Of a stretch of DNA of 64,000 nt, positions 7,012 through 60,746 are shown one piece after another. The stretch lies in NCBI RefSeq assembly GCF_030013595.1, contig NZ_CP122768.1; one strand, written 5' to 3'. Position numbers and translations under genes: made by a program. The notes below the pieces were generated by a model that was not told the origin of the DNA, searched no databases, and saw only the letters and a list, made by a program, of their open reading frames with translations. The stretch is from Escherichia coli (lineage in GTDB: Bacteria > Pseudomonadota > Gammaproteobacteria > Enterobacterales > Enterobacteriaceae). The stretch's first letter is position 1; each line of letters begins with the position of its first letter.

Positions 7012-7175
7012 CCTTATACGAACAACACCACCCCGTAGGACGGATAAGGCGTTTACGCTGCATCCGGCAACCTATGCCTGATGCGACGCTGAAGCGTCTT
7101 ATCATGCCTACATAGCACTGCCACGTATGTCGGAAAAGGCGTTTACACCGCATCCGGCATAAAAACACGCGCACT
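7012..7175. repeat. REP (repetitive extragenic palindromic) elements
   Basis: Several copies of the GCCGGATGCGGCGT / CGCCTTATCCGGC-type palindromic unit between fbaB and gatY. Confidence 0.7.
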
Positions 7176-15427: not shown

Positions 15428-15514
15428 CTTATGCATAAAAAAATAAGCCCGTGTAAGGGAGATTACACAGGCTAAGGAGGTGGTTCCTGGTACAGCTAGC
15501 ATTTTATGGGTTAT
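15428..15514 (-). ncRNA. cyaR: Hfq-dependent small RNA CyaR (RyeE)
   Basis: Minus-strand sequence GCTGAAAAACATAACCCATAAAATGCTAGCTGTACCAGGAACCACCTCCTTAGCCTGTGTAATCTCCCTTACACGGGCTTATTTTTT matches CyaR as I recall it, including the terminator hairpin and U tract. Confidence 0.8.
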
Positions 15515-15608
15515 GTTTTTCAGCGAAACGGATGATAACCTTAATAAATGCAGCTGTATGTGATCGGTTTCTAAGAATTTTCCATCCGGGAAAAATAATC
15601 GAAATTAA

Positions 15609-29599: not shown

Positions 29600-29740
29600 G
29601 CGGGACGCTGAAACGGGAAAGCCCCTCCCGAGGAAGGGGCCATAAATAAGGAAAGGGTCATGATGAAGCTACTCATCATCGTGGTGCTCTTAGTCATAAG
29701 CTTCCCCGCTTACTAAGACTACCAGGGCGGGGGAAACCCC
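29600..29740 (-). ncRNA. sibB: Sib-type antisense sRNA (antitoxin of ibsB); approximate bounds
   Basis: Established arrangement: Sib RNAs are transcribed antisense across ibs ORFs. A minus-strand hairpin plus T-rich tract lies near 29600-29640. Bounds not verifiable here. Confidence 0.35.
29660..29716 (+). CDS. ibsB: type I toxin, small hydrophobic peptide
   Basis: 18-codon ORF encoding MMKLLIIVVLLVISFPAY preceded by AAGGAAAGGG; matches the Ibs toxin family. Confidence 0.7.
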   Translation: MMKLLIIVVLLVISFPAY

Positions 29741-29929
29741 GCTCTACCCTCACTCCTGAAAGTATGCCTTCACGATAAGATTGTCAATCCGCAGGCTTTG
29801 TAGTCTGCGATCCTGCCAGCAAATATTCTTTGCGAGTCGTTACGCAATAATCACAGAGGAAACTATTTTATTCACGCGTTAGCGATAGACTGCATTCAGG
29901 GCGAAAGGAGGTAAGCCGATGATTTCAGC

Positions 29930-30070
29930 GGGACGCTGAAACGGGAAAGCCTCTCCCGGAGAAGAGGGCTTTTAATAAGGAAAGGGTTATGATGAAGCAC
30001 GTCATCATACTGGTGATACTCTTAGTGATTAGCTTCCAGGCTTACTAAGAACACCAGGGGGAGGGGGAAA
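29930..30070 (-). ncRNA. sibA: Sib-type antisense sRNA (antitoxin of ibsA); approximate bounds
   Basis: Second copy of the repeat unit; inferred by analogy with the first copy. Confidence 0.35.
29989..30048 (+). CDS. ibsA: type I toxin, small hydrophobic peptide
   Basis: 19-codon ORF encoding MMKHVIILVILLVISFQAY preceded by AAGGAAAGGG. Confidence 0.7.
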   Translation: MMKHVIILVILLVISFQAY

Positions 30071-30268
30071 CCTCTCCCTAACCCTCACTCCTGAAATTAT
30101 GTCACTCCGCCCTTAGTGTCAATCGACGGCTCTCCGTTCTTGCGAGGCGAATAGCAAAATTTTCTGCGCCGCCGGGCCTAATTCTGAAAGTTTCTTCGTT
30201 TGCTCTTATTTCATTATTGCAGTCGGTATGATACCGGACCTCGATAATTCTCTAAGAAAGGATTTCTT

Positions 30269-43659: not shown

Positions 43660-43700
43660 CCAGTCCTGTAGGCCTGATAAGACGCGTAAAGCGTCGCATC
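43660..43700. repeat. REP element
   Basis: GTAGGCCTGATAAGACGCG...CGTCGCATCAGGCG unit after asmA; a further 9-bp hairpin (CCAGGGTGG...CCACCCTGG) lies near 43805-43835. Confidence 0.6.
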
Positions 43701-43939
43701 AGGCGTTCGTGGCGGCATCATTATATTCTGAATATGTAAGATCGAAGGCTGTTCCGTTCACTTGATGTTCCTCGTTACTATGGAACGCTCAAGCCGGTGA
43801 ACGTGCCAGGGTGGCTCAATCGCCACCACCCTGGCAACCCGGGCCCACACCCCCGCTGTGATGTCCATGTACCACAGACAACGCTTCATTGCTGAAGTTA
43901 TAAGGCGTTACGCAGCATCGGGTAAAATGACCGATACCA

Positions 43940-45523
43940 TCACACCTCGTACTCCATCTCGCCATCCTTACGCAGCGGTATAATCTGCACCTTCTGCACG
44001 CGATGGCTTTCTACCTGCAACGTTTTAAGCAAATAATCCCCCACCTGAACTTCTTCGCCAGGTTTTGGAATACGCTGCAAATACTCCATCAACAGCCCGG
44101 CAATGGTGTGATATTCACGTTTTTCATCCAGCGGCAGCGGCACATATTGCACCAGATCCTCCAGCGGCATATGACCATTCGCCGTCCAGGAACCGTCCGC
44201 ATTCTTCTGAATATCATGGCGGGCGTCGATCTCTTCCACTTCGTTCGGTAAGTTACCGGCAATGGTTTCAGTGACGTCACTTAATGTCACAATCCCTTCC
44301 ACCGAGCCAAACTCATCCACCACAAAAGCAAAGTGCGTGCGGGCATTACGGAACTGCTCCAGGGCAGGTAACAACGGCAAGGTTTCCGGGAACACCAGCG
44401 GCTGGCGAATCAACACCCGCAGGTTGAGCGGTTCGCCGCGCAGAGACTGTTGTAGCAGGTCGATAACGTGAACAACACCGAGCAAATCTTCTGCGTCATC
44501 ACCGTCGGTAACCACCAGCCGCGTATGCTGATTTCGCTCCAGCAACTGGTGGATCTCGTCTTCCGGCGCGTTGAGATCGATATGCTCAATATCGTGGCGC
44601 GACGTCATAATGCTGCTGACGGTACGCTGGTTAAGATTTAGTACCCGCTCAATCATCCGCCGTTCCTGCGGATTAAAGATCTGCTGGTTACCATGATCCA
44701 CCAGCATGGACGCGGTTTCGGCGTCCAGTTCCGCATCTTCTTTTTGCCCGCTAAGCAGGCGCATTACCGCTTCGGTAGTCCGCTGGCGCAGCGTCTGGTT
44801 AGCGGAAAGAAAACGTCGCCGGTTAAAGATAGCCAACTGATTGAGCGCCTCGATCATCACCGAGAAACCAATGGCAGCGTACAGGTAGCCTTTCGGAATG
44901 ACGAAGCCGAAACCTTCTGCCACCAGGCTAAAGCCAATCATCAACAGGAAGCTTAAGCAGAGAATAACGATCGTCGGGTGACTGTTAACAAATTGCGTTA
45001 ACGGCTTGCTGGCCATCAACATCAGGCTGATAGCGATAACCACGGCGGCCATCATGACCAGTAAATGGTCGACCATCCCGACGGCGGTAATCACTGAGTC
45101 GAGTGAGAAAATGGCGTCCAGTACCACAATTTGCGTCACCACGCCCCAGAACTTCGCACCTTTGCGTTGTGTGGGATTATTGCTGTCTTTCCCTTCCAGC
45201 CGTTCGTTCAGCTCCATCGTGGCTTTGAACAACAGGAAGAAACCACCAAACAGCATGATTAAGTCGCGGGCACTAAAGGTAAACGAGCGGAAGCTGAACA
45301 GCGGTTGAGTCAGGGTGACCAGCCAGGAGATTGACGCCAGCAGTAACAGGCGCATTAACATTGCCAGCAGCAGCCCGGTAACCCGTGCGCGGTCACGCTG
45401 CTTCGGCGGTAGTTTTTCGGCGAGGATGGCAATAAAGACCAGGTTATCAATGCCGAGGACCAGTTCGATCACAATCAGCGTGATTAACCCGGCCCAGATA
45501 GACGGATCGGCAATCCATTCCAT
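43940..45523 (-). CDS. yegH: TerC-family integral membrane protein with C-terminal CBS/CorC domains (UPF0053)
   Basis: 527 aa from the ATG at 45523 ([32 protein letters not shown]...); the ORF track extends 22 codons further upstream. Confidence 0.85.
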
Positions 45524-45991
45524 AGTAAGTACAAAACCTATTCGTTGTATGACAAATGTCACAATTCGATCATGGATAAATCGGGGCAAAAATGCAATGT
45601 TGCAGCACTATTTATCTCATATTATTTGAGGGTAATAACCTCACATTATCCCTGAATTAAAAGTGGTAATAATAAAACATTATTTAAGAAATATCGCATG
45701 TGGAGGCGCAATATTAAATATTGTCAACCTAAAGAAACTCCTAAAAACCATATTGAATGACACTTAATATAATTCTTAAAAATAGCCAATTGCCGAATTG
45801 TTACCTTGCCTGCTATTCCGTTAGCTGTAACACTTCCTCCTGCATTATTGGAGAGCCAATATTCAATTACCATAATGTCACCTTATATTCGGAAGTTAAT
45901 TTCCGCAATAACCCTTTCTCATCAACGATTGTATGCTGAGAGGGTGTGAAAAATTAAGCTAAATCAGTGTATTGGTAGCTAAAAAGCCAGG

Positions 45992-46003
45992 GGCGGTAGC
46001 GTG
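45992..46003 (+). promoter_or_regulatory. ops element (RfaH-dependent antitermination signal, within JUMPstart)
   Basis: Exact GGCGGTAGCGTG about 180 nt upstream of the wza start. Confidence 0.65.
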
Positions 46004-46181
46004 TCTGGATGCCTGAAAGACCAGTCTGAATTATTCTGTCAATAGCCTGCGGATGAAATCAATTTTTTTAGGACTGATGCCAGTTAAATTTTTATTCAAT
46101 TAACTGCAAGGTAAATGTGCATGGCGACATTGCTATTAATAGTGCACAGGATAATTACTCTGCCAAAGTGATAAATAAACA

Positions 46182-47321
46182 ATGATGAAATCCAAAATGA
46201 AATTGATGCCATTATTGGTGTCAGTAACCTTGATAAGCGGTTGCACAGTACTTCCGGGCAGCAATATGTCGACGATGGGCAAAGACGTCATCAAACAGCA
46301 GGACGCTGATTTCGATCTCGACAAAATGGTGAATGTTTATCCGTTGACCCCGCGCCTGATTGACCAATTACGTCCACGACCCAACGTAGCGCGCCCCAAT
46401 ATGACGCTGGAAAGCGAGATCGCGAATTACCAGTATCGCGTCGGGCCGGGCGACGTTCTGAATGTCACCGTCTGGGATCACCCGGAACTCACCACGCCAG
46501 CCGGTCAGTACCGCAGCTCCAGTGACACCGGCAACTGGGTACAGCCTGACGGCACTATGTTTTACCCGTATATCGGCAAGGTTCACGTAGTCGGGAAAAC
46601 GCTCGCTGAAATCCGCAGTGATATTACCGGGCGCTTAGCGACGTACATCGCTGACCCGCAGGTGGACGTTAATATCGCCGCCTTCCGCTCACAAAAGGCC
46701 TATATCTCCGGACAGGTGAATAAATCCGGTCAACAGGCGATCACCAACGTACCACTGACCATTCTCGACGCCATCAACGCCGCAGGTGGCCTGACCGACA
46801 CCGCTGACTGGCGCAACGTGGTGCTAACACACAATGGTCGTGAAGAACGCATTTCTTTGCAGGCGCTGATGCAAAACGGCGACCTCAATCAGAACCGACT
46901 GCTTTATCCCGGCGATATTCTCTACGTGCCGCGTAATGATGATCTGAAAGTGTTTGTGATGGGTGAAGTGAAGAAACAGAGCACCCTGAAAATGGACTTT
47001 AGCGGCATGACCCTGACTGAAGCCCTGGGCAATGCCGAAGGTATCGACATGACCACCTCCAACGCCAGCGGCATCTTTGTCATTCGTCCGCTGAAAGGCG
47101 AGGGCGGGCGTAATGGCAAGATTGCCAATATCTACCAGCTGGATATGTCCGATGCGACGTCGCTGGTGATGGCGACAGAATTCCGCCTGCAACCTTATGA
47201 CGTGGTGTATGTCACCACCGCCCCGGTTTCCCGCTGGAACCGTCTGATCAATCAGTTGCTGCCAACTATTAGCGGTGTCCGTTACATGACGGATACAGCC
47301 AGCGACATTCATAACTGGTAA
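46182..47321 (+). CDS. wza: outer-membrane polysaccharide export lipoprotein (colanic acid)
   Basis: 379-aa ORF with a lipobox (LISGC); recognised as Wza. Confidence 0.92.
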
Positions 47322-47326
47322 TCGTC

Positions 47327-47770
47327 ATGTTTAACAACATATTAGTTGTCTGTGTCGGCAATATTTGCCGTTCCCCGACGGCGGAACGCTTACTGCAACG
47401 TTATCACCCGGAGCTGAAAGTGGAGTCCGCTGGACTCGGCGCGCTGGTCGGTAAGGGCGCTGATCCTACCGCTATCAGCGTCGCCGCAGAACATCAACTG
47501 TCTCTGGAAGGTCACTGTGCCCGTCAAATCAGCCGCCGTCTGTGTCGCAACTACGACCTGATTTTGACCATGGAAAAGCGCCATATCGAACGCTTATGCG
47601 AGATGGCACCCGAGATGCGCGGCAAAGTGATGCTGTTTGGTCACTGGGATAACGAATGTGAAATCCCCGATCCGTATCGCAAAAGCCGGGAAACGTTTGC
47701 AGCGGTGTACACATTACTTGAACGGTCTGCCCGCCAGTGGGCGCAGGCATTGAACGCAGAGCAGGTATAA
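47327..47770 (+). CDS. wzb: low-molecular-weight protein-tyrosine phosphatase
   Basis: 147-aa ORF with the CVGNICRS active-site loop. Confidence 0.92.
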   Translation: MFNNILVVCVGNICRSPTAERLLQRYHPELKVESAGLGALVGKGADPTAISVAAEHQLSLEGHCARQISRRLCRNYDLILTMEKRHIERLCEMAPEMRGKVMLFGHWDNECEIPDPYRKSRETFAAVYTLLERSARQWAQALNAEQV

Positions 47771-47772
47771 GA

Positions 47773-49935
47773 ATGACAGAAAAAGTAAAACAACATGCCG
47801 CTCCGGTAACGGGCAGTGATGAAATCGATATTGGTCGCCTGGTCGGTACAGTCATTGAAGCGCGCTGGTGGGTGATTGGCATCACCGCCGTATTTGCCCT
47901 CTGTGCTGTGGTTTACACCTTCTTCGCCACGCCGATTTATAGTGCCGACGCACTGGTACAAATCGAGCAAAACAGCGGCAATTCGTTAGTGCAGGACATT
48001 GGTTCGGCATTAGCCAATAAACCGCCAGCATCGGACGCCGAGATCCAGTTGATTCGTTCGCGTCTGGTGCTTGGTAAAACGGTGGACGATCTCGACCTCG
48101 ATATTGCGGTGAGCAAAAACACGTTCCCGATTTTCGGTGCGGGTTGGGATCGCCTGATGGGACGTCAGAACGAGACGGTGAAAGTGACCACCTTTAACCG
48201 CCCGAAAGAGATGGCGGACCAGGTGTTTACGCTTAATGTGCTGGATGACAAAAACTACACCCTGAGCAGCGACGGCGGCTTTAGCGCCCGGGGGCAAGCG
48301 GGCCAGATGCTGAAAAAAGAAGGCGTCACGCTGATGGTTGAAGCCATTCACGCCAGCCCGGGCAGTGAGTTTACCGTCACCAAATACTCCACGCTGGGGA
48401 TGATCAACCAACTGCAAAACAGCCTGACGGTAACGGAGAACGGCAAAGACGCTGGCGTTTTGAGCCTGACTTATACCGGTGAAGATCGTGAACAGATCCG
48501 CGACATTCTTAACAGCATCGCCCGTAACTATCAGGAACAAAATATTGAGCGCAAATCGGCGGAAGCGTCGAAAAGCCTCGCCTTCCTCGCGCAACAGTTA
48601 CCGGAAGTACGTAGCCGCTTGGATGTTGCCGAAAACAAACTGAATGCCTTCCGTCAGGATAAAGATTCTGTTGATCTGCCGCTGGAAGCGAAAGCGGTGC
48701 TCGATTCGATGGTGAACATCGACGCCCAGTTGAACGAACTGACCTTTAAAGAGGCGGAAATCTCCAAGCTGTACACCAAAGTTCACCCGGCGTACCGCAC
48801 GCTGCTGGAGAAACGTCAGGCGCTGGAAGACGAAAAAGCCAAACTTAACGGTCGCGTAACGGCGATGCCGAAAACCCAGCAGGAGATTGTCCGTCTGACC
48901 CGCGATGTCGAGTCTGGTCAGCAGGTCTATATGCAACTGCTGAATAAAGAGCAGGAGCTGAAAATCACCGAAGCCAGCACCGTCGGCGATGTGCGCATTG
49001 TTGACCCGGCAATCACTCAGCCTGGTGTGCTAAAACCGAAGAAAGGGCTGATTATCCTTGGGGCGATTATTCTTGGCCTGATGCTCTCTATCGTGGGTGT
49101 GCTGCTGCGCTCGTTGTTTAATCGCGGCATCGAAAGCCCGCAGGTGCTGGAAGAACACGGTATCAGCGTCTATGCCAGCATCCCGTTGTCGGAATGGCAG
49201 AAAGCGCGCGATAGCGTCAAAACCATCAAAGGGATTAAACGCTATAAACAGAGCCAGCTACTGGCGGTGGGGAATCCAACCGATCTGGCGATTGAAGCCA
49301 TCCGCAGTCTGCGTACCAGTCTGCACTTCGCGATGATGCAGGCGCAGAACAATGTGTTGATGATGACCGGGGTTAGCCCGTCAATCGGTAAAACCTTTGT
49401 CTGCGCCAACCTGGCGGCGGTGATCAGCCAGACCAATAAACGCGTGTTGTTGATCGACTGCGATATGCGCAAAGGCTACACCCACGAGCTGTTGGGCACC
49501 AATAACGTCAATGGCCTGTCGGAAATTCTGATTGGTCAGGGCGATATTACTACCGCAGCTAAACCGACCTCTATTGCCAAATTTGACCTGATCCCGCGCG
49601 GTCAGGTGCCGCCAAATCCTTCTGAACTGTTGATGAGCGAACGCTTTGCCGAACTGGTGAACTGGGCGAGTAAAAACTATGACCTGGTGTTGATTGATAC
49701 GCCGCCGATTCTGGCAGTGACCGATGCGGCAATTGTTGGTCGTCACGCTGGAACCACGTTAATGGTGGCGCGTTATGCGGTCAACACCTTGAAAGAAGTG
49801 GAAACCAGTCTGAGCCGCTTTGAGCAAAACGGTATTCCGGTGAAAGGGGTGATTCTGAACTCCATCTTCCGCCGCGCCAGCGCGTATCAGGATTATGGCT
49901 ATTACGAATACGAATATAAGTCGGACGCGAAATAA
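47773..49935 (+). CDS. wzc: tyrosine autokinase / polysaccharide co-polymerase
   Basis: 720 aa from the ATG at 47773 (MTEKVKQHAAPVTGSDEIDIG...); Walker A (SPSIGKT) and a C-terminal Tyr-rich tail (YQDYGYYEYEYKSD). Confidence 0.92.
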   Translation: MTEKVKQHAAPVTGSDEIDIGRLVGTVIEARWWVIGITAVFALCAVVYTFFATPIYSADALVQIEQNSGNSLVQDIGSALANKPPASDAEIQLIRSRLVLGKTVDDLDLDIAVSKNTFPIFGAGWDRLMGRQNETVKVTTFNRPKEMADQVFTLNVLDDKNYTLSSDGGFSARGQAGQMLKKEGVTLMVEAIHASPGSEFTVTKYSTLGMINQLQNSLTVTENGKDAGVLSLTYTGEDREQIRDILNSIARNYQEQNIERKSAEASKSLAFLAQQLPEVRSRLDVAENKLNAFRQDKDSVDLPLEAKAVLDSMVNIDAQLNELTFKEAEISKLYTKVHPAYRTLLEKRQALEDEKAKLNGRVTAMPKTQQEIVRLTRDVESGQQVYMQLLNKEQELKITEASTVGDVRIVDPAITQPGVLKPKKGLIILGAIILGLMLSIVGVLLRSLFNRGIESPQVLEEHGISVYASIPLSEWQKARDSVKTIKGIKRYKQSQLLAVGNPTDLAIEAIRSLRTSLHFAMMQAQNNVLMMTGVSPSIGKTFVCANLAAVISQTNKRVLLIDCDMRKGYTHELLGTNNVNGLSEILIGQGDITTAAKPTSIAKFDLIPRGQVPPNPSELLMSERFAELVNWASKNYDLVLIDTPPILAVTDAAIVGRHAGTTLMVARYAVNTLKEVETSLSRFEQNGIPVKGVILNSIFRRASAYQDYGYYEYEYKSDAK

Positions 49936-49944
49936 CGAGATCCG

Positions 49945-50005
49945 CTGTCGGATGCGATGCTGACGCATCTTATCCGACTTACGCTCACGCCGCATCCGGC
50001 AACAG
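49945..50005. repeat. REP element
   Basis: Palindromic CGGATGCG...GCATCTTATCCGAC...CGCATCCGGCA units after wzc. Confidence 0.6.
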
Positions 50006-50063
50006 AACCCGTAAACAAGCTTATAAACCGGCAGAACATCTCGACACTCCGGGAGAACAACCT

Positions 50064-60380: not shown

Positions 60381-60656
<276 letters not shown>

Positions 60657-60746
60657 AATGAATGCGAAACCGCGGTGTAAATAATGACAAAAACAAAATT
60701 GGCCGTTTCGGTCAGGGCCAACTATTGCCTGAAAAAGGGTAACGAC

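What the first reader, a model, noticed from the sequence alone, without database searches (positions are those of the whole stretch)
45560..46181. Colanic acid promoter region with exact ops (JUMPstart) element and a possible RcsAB box
An exact GGCGGTAGCGTG ops motif sits at 45992-46003, about 180 nt upstream of wza, which would recruit RfaH for antitermination across the long wza-wcaM operon. Further upstream, TTAAGAAATATCGCA (about 45684-45698) loosely resembles an RcsAB box, but I cannot confirm the match.
Basis: partly seen in the sequence, partly recalled or inferred. Interest (0 to 1): 0.3.

Follow-up and report, generated by a model that had tools for sequence, protein, structure and literature searches.

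The report
Known colanic acid (wza) control region
This is the already well-studied switch region in front of the E. coli colanic acid slime-capsule genes: the RfaH-recruiting ops/JUMPstart signal is real, and the suspected RcsAB activator site is credible but is only one of four conserved sites of that type.

Summary
The window holds the E. coli yegH/wza divergent intergenic region (45524-46181), 99% identical to K-12 MG1655.

**ops and JUMPstart.** The ops 12-mer GGCGGTAGCGTG is exact at 45992-46003 on the wza sense strand. It lies inside a full JUMPstart element (Rfam RF01707, 57 bits against a cut-off of 35). The ops core is kept in 73 of 77 Enterobacteriaceae species. Published ChIP shows RfaH bound at this ops in E. 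coli CFT073.

**The RcsAB-like string.** TAAGAAATATCGCA (45685-45698) is present and matches the consensus TaAGaatatTCctA at 9 of 14 positions, including every capital. That match alone is not significant: 23% of simulated regions give one. Comparative data support it better. A T-RG-N5-TC site sits at a fixed offset in 64 of 77 species.

This site is one of four copies of the half-site TTTARGA (chance about 3.5e-4). Two other copies (45739, 45774) are more strongly conserved, and the fourth lies in the leader after ops (46067). A conserved extended -10 promoter (TTGCCT-17-TGnAACAAT, 45806-45834) probably sets the start near 45841.

I could not establish which site is the published wza RcsAB box. 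The feature is already known and of low interest.

The parts
45524..46181 (.). yegH(-)/wza(+) divergent intergenic region. It is 658 bp, 35% GC, and forms the colanic acid (cps/wca) operon control region.
   Evidence: Searches identify the flanking genes. It is 99% identical and colinear with K-12 MG1655 2137244-2137901. At least 80% of 45400-46400 is present in 4818 of 5426 complete E. coli genomes.
45683..45698 (+). It reads TTTAAGA half-site plus 14-mer TAAGA-AATA-TCGCA (45685-45698).
   Evidence: It matches the consensus at 9 of 14 positions, including all capitals. A T.[AG]G.....TC site lies 37-39 nt (or 48 nt) upstream of the invariant GTCAA anchor in 64 of 77 species, as 17 distinct 14-mers, including TGAGGATATTCCTA (12/14) in Atlantibacter. 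The match alone is not significant.
45719..45748 (+). Element B, a near-invariant block TTGTCAAyATnAAnnAAAwTCCTAAAA. The 14-mer at 45730-45743 reads TAAAG-AAAC-TCCTA, and the RcsB-type right half plus A-tract TCCTAAAA is at 45739-45746.
   Evidence: TCCTAAAA is present in 66 of 77 species, with TCTTAAAA or TCCGAAAA in 9 more. The 14-mer averages 9.55 of 14 matches to the consensus across species. It is a good box in Kosakonia cowanii, Franconibacter, Atlantibacter and Siccibacter. Its right half and flank resemble the rcsA promoter box TAAGGATTATCCGAAAAA.
45764..45783 (+). Element C, the block CTTAATATwAwTCTTAAAA. The 14-mer at 45765-45778 reads TAATA-TAAT-TCTTA, and TCTTAAAA is at 45774-45781. 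An alternative reading is a -10 hexamer (TAATAT/TATAAT, 45765-45773).
   Evidence: TCTTAAAA is present in 75 of 77 species, and the other 2 have TCCTAAAA. The distance from this half-site to the TTGCCT -35 hexamer is 32 nt in 63 species, 31 in 8 and 43 in 4, the last being a one-turn insertion.
45806..45834 (+). Promoter D, the most likely core sigma-70 promoter. It has -35 TTGCCT (45806-45811), a 17-nt spacer and an extended -10 TGT-AACACT (45826-45834). The predicted start is about 45841, which is inferred and not mapped.
   Evidence: TTGCCT is present in 69 of 76 species. The spacer is exactly 17 nt in 70 of 70. TG(C/T)AACAAT is present in 67 of 70, and the E. coli lineage has TGTAACACT. 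The simple consensus scan does not flag it, as expected for a weak, activator-dependent promoter.
45965..46003 (+). JUMPstart element, with the ops 12-mer GGCGGTAGCGTG at 45992-46003 on the non-template strand.
   Evidence: locate and score it. The GGCGGTAG core is in 73 of 77 species and the exact 12-mer in 61. It lies 186-199 nt from the wza ATG in 72 species. RfaH ChIP signal was reported at the identical site in CFT073.
46066..46086 (+). Element L, a leader block TTTTAGGACTGATGCCAGTTA. It holds the fourth TTTARGA half-site (46067-46073) and the 14-mer TAGGA-CTGA-TGCCA (46069-46082), starting 63 nt after ops.
   Evidence: TTTAGGA is present in 70 of 77 species. It is retained even in the three lineages that have deleted the JUMPstart. 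No covariation-supported RNA structure was found here.
46143..46181 (+). Near-invariant 39 nt immediately upstream of the wza ATG (GCACAGGATAATTACTCTGCCAAAGTGATAAATAAACA). It has no canonical Shine-Dalgarno sequence at the usual distance.
   Evidence: Searches show the conservation, and the sequence is read directly. Its function was not determined.
46182..49935 (+). wza (46182-47321), wzb (47327-47770) and wzc (47773-49935), the first genes of the operon served by this control region.
   Evidence: NCBIfam matches PRK15078, PRK10126 and PRK11519 all exceed their cut-offs. RefSeq annotation agrees.

Best explanation
This is the control region of the colanic acid (wza-wcaM) operon, and it works in two layers.

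**Layer 1, initiation.** A weak sigma-70 promoter needs the Rcs activators. It is most likely TTGCCT-17-TGtAACACT at 45806-45834, starting near 45841. Upstream of it lies an array of Rcs-type sites, each made of one strong and one weak half-site of the RcsAB box:
- B at 45730-45743
- C at 45765-45778

A fourth site (L, 46069-46082) sits in the leader. RcsA-RcsB, and possibly RcsB alone, bound to these sites switches the AT-rich, H-NS-silenced promoter on.

**Layer 2, elongation.** About 150 nt into the roughly 340-nt leader, RNA polymerase transcribes the JUMPstart element. The ops sequence on the non-template strand then loads RfaH, which keeps polymerase going through the long operon against H-NS and termination.

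**What is shown and what is inferred.**
- Shown here: the sequences, their positions and their conservation.
- Shown in the literature: RfaH occupancy at this ops, H-NS silencing, and the existence of an RcsAB box in the wza promoter.
- Inferred: the start site, which site(s) RcsAB binds, and any role for B, C and L.
For: **Locus identity.**

**ops and JUMPstart.**
- Exact 12-mer, unique in the window.
- Rfam score of 57.3 against 35.
- Core kept in 73 of 77 species at 186-199 nt from the ATG.
- The only part shared with the Klebsiella-type wzi leader (33 of 39), as expected of a modular element.
- RfaH ChIP positive at the identical site, 190 nt from wza, in CFT073 delta-hns delta-stpA. H-NS was bound and sigma-70 appeared upstream only when H-NS and StpA were removed (PMC9765446).

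**Rcs control and the RcsAB box.** Citing papers state that the wza promoter is under Rcs control and contains an RcsAB box (PMC2478693, PMC11014345, PMC9976346).

**Site A.** Positional conservation is shown.

**Half-site array.**
- TTTARGA occurs 6 times in 64 kb, and 4 of those are in these 658 bp.
- Simulation gives a mean of 0.35 and P(>=4) = 3.5e-4.
- For TCYTAAAA, P(>=3) = 6e-4.
- Each copy is conserved in most of the 77 species.
- Insertions between elements come in steps of about 10-11 bp.

**Promoter D.** Both hexamers and the 17-nt spacer are fixed, while spacer bases vary.

**Documented boxes for comparison.**
- K. pneumoniae galF: TAAGATTATTCTCA (found in L084).
- S. Typhimurium rcsA: TAAGGTTTATCCGA.
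- E. coli rcsA: TAAGGATTATCCGA-AAAAA, 251-264 nt before rcsA.
Against: - No transcription start data could be reached. The start near 45841 is a prediction.
- A start near 45778-45780, from TAATAT/TATAAT at 45765-45773, is a live alternative.
- Promoter D in E. coli has a poor -10 (AACACT), and the consensus scan does not report it.
- The match of site A to the box is not significant by itself. Site A is missing or displaced in 13 of 77 species.
- Sites B and C lack the conserved G at box position 4 in E. coli.
- No binding data for any of the four sites were available to me.
- RfaH occupancy was shown in CFT073, not in this strain, and only after H-NS and StpA were removed.
Confidence: 0.85

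Rival explanations
1. The functional (and published) RcsAB box is element B (45730-45743), perhaps with C. Site A is then at most an auxiliary or lineage-specific upstream site.
For: - B and C are nearly invariant in all 77 species, whereas A is 70-90% conserved and absent or displaced in 13.
- Mean consensus match is 9.55 for B and 10.2 for C, against 6.95 for A.
- In genera that lack A, B is a good box, for example TGAGGATAATCCTA and TCAGGTTAATCCTA.
- B shares the right half plus A-tract with the rcsA box.
- With promoter D, B is centred near -104. That fits my unverified recollection that the wza box lies about 100 bp upstream of the start.
Against: - In E. coli, B reads TAAAGAAACTCCTA, with the G at position 5 rather than 4.
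- A is the only site in the spacer that carries all six capital positions of the published consensus, which was derived partly from the K-12 wza site.
- A keeps the T-RG-N5-TC pattern through many substitutions.
Confidence: 0.4
2. The TTTARGA array, site A included, is bound by something other than RcsA/RcsB. Candidates are H-NS or another nucleoid protein, or a different FixJ/LuxR-type partner. Alternatively, site A serves the divergent yegH gene.
For: - The region is 35% GC, and H-NS was reported bound there.
- Site A lies about 160 nt upstream of the yegH ATG.
- RcsB is known to pair with several auxiliary regulators that share its half-site (PMC3950696).
Against: - The half-site is the RcsAB-box half-site itself.
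- The operon is the classic Rcs target.
- A separate conserved promoter-like block for yegH lies at 45551-45600, well away from A.
Confidence: 0.12
3. ops is bypassed in practice. Most wza transcripts would start from a promoter between ops and the ATG, so RfaH would have little role.
For: - The 180 nt after ops are highly conserved and contain TTGCTA and GATAAT hexamers.
- One study used the fragment 45982-46181 as a 'wza promoter' in a lacZ fusion (PMC11112850).
Against: - The two hexamers are only 14 nt apart, and the promoter scan finds nothing there.
- RfaH ChIP signal at this ops shows that polymerase reads through it.
- ops and its distance to the ATG are conserved in 72 species.
Confidence: 0.05

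Closest known systems
E. coli K-12 cps/wza promoter as described by Stout 1996 and Wehland & Bernhard 2000
   Same: It is the same locus. The spacer is 99% identical and colinear with MG1655, and elements A, B, C, D, JUMPstart and L are all identical.
   Different: There are only 11 single-base differences, all outside the elements. I could not read either paper, so the published +1 and box coordinates are not mapped onto the window.
JUMPstart/ops leaders of RfaH-dependent operons (rfaQ/waaQ, rfb/wzx, hly, kps, tra)
   Same: It has the same 12-mer as rfaQ and wzx in CFT073. It is on the non-template strand, inside a 5' leader, ahead of a long envelope-polysaccharide operon, and has a full match to the Rfam JUMPstart model.
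   Different: By the published account the operon is silent without Rcs induction or H-NS removal, so its RfaH dependence is 'cryptic'. The leader beyond the JUMPstart is unrelated to that of the group 1 capsule wzi leader.
Documented RcsAB boxes: K. pneumoniae galF TAAGATTATTCTCA, and the rcsA promoter TAAGG(A/T)TTATCCGA
   Same: It shares the 14-bp pseudo-palindrome pattern T-A-R-G ... T-C ... A. Site A shares 10 of 14 positions with the E. coli rcsA box. Site B shares 9 of 14 plus the A-tract flank.
   Different: Each wza element has one degenerate half, and there are four of them rather than one. The galF spacer is not homologous to the wza spacer.
RcsB homodimer box TN(G/A)GAN4TC(T/C)NA (Huesa et al. 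2021, PMC7913699)
   Same: Site A fits it except at one position.
   Different: Site A has G where T or C is required (TCGCA). In E. coli, B and C fail in the left half.

Membership tests
ops / JUMPstart element of RfaH-controlled operons | ops consensus GGCGGTAGnnTG | tested here: met
   The exact sequence GGCGGTAGCGTG is at 45992-46003.
ops / JUMPstart element of RfaH-controlled operons | Full 39-nt JUMPstart context | tested here: met
   Rfam RF01707 scores 57.3 bits against a gathering score of 35, covering model positions 1-38 of 38.
ops / JUMPstart element of RfaH-controlled operons | Located on the non-template strand within the transcribed leader of the operon | tested here: inconclusive
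   Strand and position before wza are met. Whether it is transcribed depends on a start site that I could only predict, at about 45841 or about 45779. Published RfaH ChIP implies read-through.
ops / JUMPstart element of RfaH-controlled operons | RfaH occupancy and RfaH-dependent distal gene expression | not testable with these tools
   The literature reports RfaH ChIP signal at the identical site in CFT073 delta-hns delta-stpA. Expression dependence was not examined here.
ops / JUMPstart element of RfaH-controlled operons | Conservation of the element at the orthologous position | tested here: met
   The core is in 73 of 77 species and lies 186-199 nt from the ATG in 72.
RcsAB box | 14-bp match to TaAGaatatTCctA with the conserved (capital) positions | tested here: met
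   Site A matches 9 of 14 with all capitals, and is the only such site in the spacer.
RcsAB box | Match stronger than chance in this sequence | tested here: not met
   23% of simulated spacers contain an equal or better match, and 12 such sites occur in the window.
RcsAB box | Site kept at the orthologous position, with the core pattern preserved | tested here: met
   64 of 77 species have T.[AG]G.....TC at a fixed offset, as 17 sequence variants.
RcsAB box | Lies upstream of an Rcs-dependent promoter | tested here: met
   The site is upstream of wza in the cps control region. Rcs dependence is taken from the literature.
RcsAB box | Bound by the RcsA-RcsB heterodimer, with mutation abolishing induction | not testable with these tools
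   This needs gel shift or footprinting and promoter mutants. It was reportedly done for 'the wza box' by Wehland & Bernhard 2000, which I could not access.
RcsAB box | Identity with the published wza RcsAB box | tested here: inconclusive
   Sequence searches of the paper library found neither candidate printed. Elements A and B both remain possible.
RcsB homodimer box TN(G/A)GAN4TC(T/C)NA | Exact fit to the structural consensus | tested here: not met
   Site A has G at the (T/C) position. In E. coli, B and C miss the left half.

The most novel reading that the evidence does not exclude
The wza control region may not be 'one RcsAB box plus a promoter'. It may instead be a conserved array of four Rcs-type half-sites: A and L in one orientation, B and C in the other. 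Spacing changes by whole helical turns, and one site lies inside the transcribed leader just downstream of ops. That arrangement would suggest a multi-site, possibly looped, RcsA/RcsB complex. The leader site could couple Rcs binding to the step at which RfaH is loaded.
Probability: 0.25. Interest if true: 0.35.

Novelty: already known. Interest (0 to 1): 0.12.

Why it matters
The finding itself adds nothing new. JUMPstart/ops upstream of wza and Rcs activation of the colanic acid promoter have been described since the 1990s, and RfaH binding at this ops was shown in 2022.

The useful outcome is practical:
- The window is correctly identified.
- A bare consensus match is shown to be insufficient to name the RcsAB box.
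- The comparative data give a concrete map of A, B, C, promoter D and L, with K-12 coordinates, for anyone who builds wza reporters or engineers colanic acid production.
- At least one published 'wza promoter' reporter fragment (45982-46181) lacks the promoter and all upstream Rcs-type sites.

Tried and rejected
**Primary papers.** Stout 1996 (PMID 8763957, PMC178186), Wehland & Bernhard 2000 (PMID 10702265), Sturny 2003 and Ebel & Trempy 1999 are not held.

**Full-text searches for the candidate box sequences.** No relevant paper was found for either strand of A or B. Further searches for the box position or the start site were empty or uninformative.

**Transcription start data sets.**
- The Cappable-seq supplement is truncated before 2.13 Mb.
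- Thomason 2015 is not held.
- The Hustmyer data set gives 'NA' for the wza start.
- The Salmonella RcsB paper has no wza entry and no held supplements.

**Mapping the documented K. pneumoniae galF box onto A or B by homology.** E. coli strains with a Klebsiella-type group 1 capsule locus carry the box. Their yegH-galF spacer is unrelated to the wza spacer, and the wzi leader shares only the JUMPstart.

**Reaching the Erwinia amylovora amsG promoter through Wza homologues.** The best 120 hits were all at least 85% identical, and none was an Erwinia amylovora protein (one 88%-identical hit was labelled Erwinia sp. CPCC 100877). I abandoned this route.

**RNA structure in the ops-to-ATG leader.** Only the small JUMPstart hairpin and two short stems were predicted, with no compensatory changes. 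I rejected structure as the explanation for the conserved leader blocks.

**Intrinsic terminators inside the operon.** There were 19 terminator-like sites against 20.5 expected, so there is no excess.

**Element B as a promoter.** TTGTCA-15-TAAAAA on the + strand, or TTGACA on the - strand, both fail: the spacing is wrong or no conserved -10 is present.

Full report
**What is in the sequence**

The finding lies in the 658-bp spacer (45524-46181, 35% GC) between yegH and wza. yegH is on the minus strand with its ATG complement at 45523. wza is on the plus strand with its ATG at 46182, and wzb and wzc follow it.

The stretch 45400-46400 is 100% identical to E. coli O157:H16 strain Santai. At least 80% of it is present in 4818 of 5426 complete E. 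coli genomes. The spacer is 99% identical and colinear with K-12 MG1655, and every element discussed below is unchanged. K-12 coordinate = 2183425 minus window position.

**The ops observation**

GGCGGTAGCGTG is exact at 45992-46003 on the wza sense strand. It is the only copy in the window even when one mismatch is allowed. It forms the 3' end of a complete JUMPstart element at 45965-46003, which scores 57.3 bits against the Rfam gathering score of 35 (E about 1e-11).

I collected the yegH-wza spacer from 77 Enterobacteriaceae species representatives that keep the same gene arrangement.
- The GGCGGTAG core is present in 73 and the exact 12-mer in 61.
- It lies 186-199 nt before the wza ATG in 72.
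- Three related lineages (L035, L036, L039) have deleted the whole JUMPstart.

In an E. coli strain with a Klebsiella-type group 1 capsule locus, the wzi leader shares only the JUMPstart with the wza leader (33 of 39 bases). This shows that the JUMPstart is a modular element.

**Literature on ops and RfaH**

Hustmyer et al. 2022 (PMC9765446) catalogued ops sites in E. coli CFT073. Their Dataset S2 lists GGCGGTAGCGTG at -190 from wza, in the leader, on the non-template strand, with RfaH ChIP signal in a delta-hns delta-stpA strain.
- H-NS covers the promoter in the wild type.
- A sigma-70 peak appears upstream only when H-NS and StpA are removed.
- The authors call wza-wcaM a cryptic RfaH-regulated locus.

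Other papers describe the operon as using a JUMPstart-RfaH mechanism and RcsA/RcsB activation, citing Stout 1996, Hobbs & Reeves 1994 and Wehland & Bernhard 2000. This half of the finding is therefore correct and already known.

**The RcsAB-like string**

TTAAGAAATATCGCA is at 45684-45698 as stated. The 14-mer 45685-45698 matches the consensus TaAGaatatTCctA (quoted in PMC4325325 and PMC3950696) at 9 of 14 positions, including all capital positions. It is the only site in the spacer that does so.

The match alone proves little. Twelve equally good sites occur in the window, and 23% of simulated AT-rich spacers contain one.

Comparative data are more telling.
- In 64 of 77 species, a site with the pattern T.[AG]G.....TC lies on the same strand 37-39 nt upstream of an invariant GTCAA. 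In six species the offset is 48 nt, one helical turn further.
- These sites comprise 17 different 14-mers.
- Most genera have TAGGA(A/T)ATATCGCA. Atlantibacter has TGAGGATATTCCTA, a 12 of 14 match.

This is the signature of a constrained binding site of the RcsAB/RcsB type. Thirteen species lack it at that position, although some have a similar site displaced or with 5-nt spacing.

The footprint shows blocks that are more strongly conserved than site A.
- **Element B** (45719-45748) reads TTGTCAAyATnAAnnAAAwTCCTAAAA.
- **Element C** (45764-45783) reads CTTAATATwAwTCTTAAAA.
- **Element L** (46066-46086) reads TTTTAGGACTGATGCCAGTTA and lies in the leader 63 nt after ops.

All three, together with site A, contain the same half-site TTTARGA. 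[quoted passage not shown]
- TTTARGA occurs six times in the 64-kb window, and four of those are in this spacer. Simulation of the spacer gives a mean of 0.35 and P(>=4) = 3.5e-4.
- For TCYTAAAA, P(>=3) = 6e-4.
- TCCTAAAA at B is kept in 66 of 77 species, with close variants in 9 more. TCTTAAAA at C is kept in 75 of 77. TTTAGGA at L is kept in 70 of 77.

Read as 14-mers, each element has one strong and one weak half:

| Element | 14-mer |
|---|---|
| A | TAAGA-AATA-TCGCA |
| B | TAAAG-AAAC-TCCTA |
| C | TAATA-TAAT-TCTTA |
| L | TAGGA-CTGA-TGCCA |

Averaged over species, B and C match the consensus better than A: 9.55 and 10.2 against 6.95 of 14. In several genera B is a good box, for example TAAGTTAATTCCTA in Kosakonia cowanii and TGAGGATAATCCTA in Franconibacter.

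The E. coli rcsA promoter box is TAAGGATTATCCGA followed by AAAAA. It lies 251-264 nt before rcsA and corresponds to the Salmonella box listed in PMC7913699. It shares 10 of 14 positions with A, and 9 of 14 plus the A-tract with B.

**Where transcription probably starts**

No mapped start was reachable, so this section is inference. There are two candidates.

1. **Promoter D.** TTGCCT (45806-45811), a 17-nt spacer, and TGT-AACACT (45826-34).
   - TTGCCT is kept in 69 of 76 species, and the spacer is exactly 17 nt in 70 of 70.
   - The extended -10 is TG(C/T)AACAAT in 67 of 70.
   - The spacer bases vary.
   - The C half-site lies 31-32 nt before this -35 in 71 species and 43 nt before it in four.
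   - This predicts a start near 45841 and a leader of about 341 nt, with ops at about +152. A, B and C would be centred near -149, -104 and -69.
2. **The alternative.** TAATAT/TATAAT at 45765-45773, with a start near 45779. B would then abut the -35 position and A would be centred near -88.

I favour promoter D at about 60%. I found no convincing promoter between ops and the ATG: the conserved TTGCTA and GATAAT hexamers there are only 14 nt apart.

**Which site is the published RcsAB box**

I could not settle this.
- The two defining papers are not in the library.
- No open paper prints either candidate sequence.
- The documented K. pneumoniae galF box TAAGATTATTCTCA is present in an E. coli group 1 capsule strain (L084 5803-5816). 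Its spacer is not homologous to the wza spacer, so it cannot be used to map the box.
- An attempt to reach the Erwinia amsG promoter failed.

My estimates:
- Site A is a real Rcs-type site: about 0.65.
- Site A is the box as published: about 0.45.
- Element B is the box as published: about 0.4-0.45.

**Mechanism**

The best-supported account has two layers. RcsA/RcsB bound to the upstream array activates a weak, H-NS-silenced sigma-70 promoter. Polymerase then meets ops on the non-template strand of the leader, loads RfaH, and transcribes the long operon without premature termination or H-NS blockage.

The leader after ops shows strong sequence conservation but no covariation-supported RNA structure. 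The operon body shows no excess of intrinsic terminators. This agrees with the published view that RfaH acts against H-NS and factor-dependent termination.

The 39 nt before the wza ATG are nearly invariant and lack a canonical Shine-Dalgarno sequence. I did not determine their role.

**Verdict**

The feature is a known regulatory region and of low interest. The one point that may be new is the conserved four-copy half-site array, including a copy in the leader. It needs binding and mutational tests.

Noticed in passing
window 45724-45873 (- strand): RefSeq/PGAP annotates a 49-aa 'hypothetical protein' (WP_162829205.1) here in many E. coli genomes. It overlaps elements B, C and promoter D. Its 5' part lies in a stretch that is poorly conserved and full of indels across genera, so it is probably not a real gene.
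   Followed up: partly
window 45551-45600: A conserved block lies just upstream of yegH (ACAAATGTCACAATTCGATCATGGATAAATCG...AAATGCAATGTT). On the yegH strand it reads as a plausible promoter, TTGCAT-17-CATGAT. It is well separated from the wza elements.
   Followed up: partly
window 45982-46181; PMC11112850: A published 'wza promoter'-lacZ reporter (pwza primers AAAAGCCAGGGGCGGTAGCG and CTGCCAAAGTGATAAATAAACA) spans only the 3' end of the JUMPstart to the ATG. It lacks the predicted promoter and all upstream Rcs-type sites, so its negative result for LsrR says little about wza promoter control.
   Followed up: partly
loci L035, L036, L039 (Pseudescherichia vulneris and relatives); L005: Three related species have a spacer about 180 bp shorter (478-479 nt) that lacks the whole JUMPstart/ops but keeps elements B, C, D and L. 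One Citrobacter (L005) lacks the GGCGGTAG core. These are natural test cases for RfaH-independent colanic acid expression.
   Followed up: no
E. coli genomes H51-H54; L083, L084: About 600 of 5426 complete E. coli genomes lack this wza control region and carry a divergent yegH (60-90% identity). In the one intact example examined (L084), a Klebsiella-type galF-PAP2-wzi capsule locus follows, with the documented RcsAB box TAAGATTATTCTCA 174-187 nt before galF. The other (L083) has yegH, IS/transposase fragments and galF.
   Followed up: partly
window 49936-50063 (wzc-wcaA gap), hairpin about 49947-49978: There is a strong REP-like stem-loop without a U-tract (fold of the gap -37.1 kcal/mol, z = -3.3). 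It may be the attenuator or stabiliser hairpin described after wzc in related capsule loci.
   Followed up: partly
window 60693-60742 (+): The Rfam 'algC RNA' motif (RF02929) scores 78 bits against 33.8. By the Santai annotation it lies just inside the annotated 5' end of cpsG (phosphomannomutase). Two REP/naRNA4 elements (60448-60518 and 60536-60606) lie in the cpsB-cpsG gap before it.
   Followed up: no
window 29645-30122 (-); 15441-15526 (-); 7038-7108; 43671-43743: Other RNA features in the window are two Sib antitoxin RNAs (next to ibsA/ibs toxin genes), CyaR, a REP/naRNA4 element at 7038-7108, and a sub-threshold REP-like hit between asmA and yegH.
   Followed up: no
L045 (Citrobacter amalonaticus), leader between element L and the wza ATG: An insertion of about 120 nt lies in the wza leader downstream of ops, so ops is 308 nt from the ATG instead of about 190. 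I did not examine its nature.
   Followed up: no
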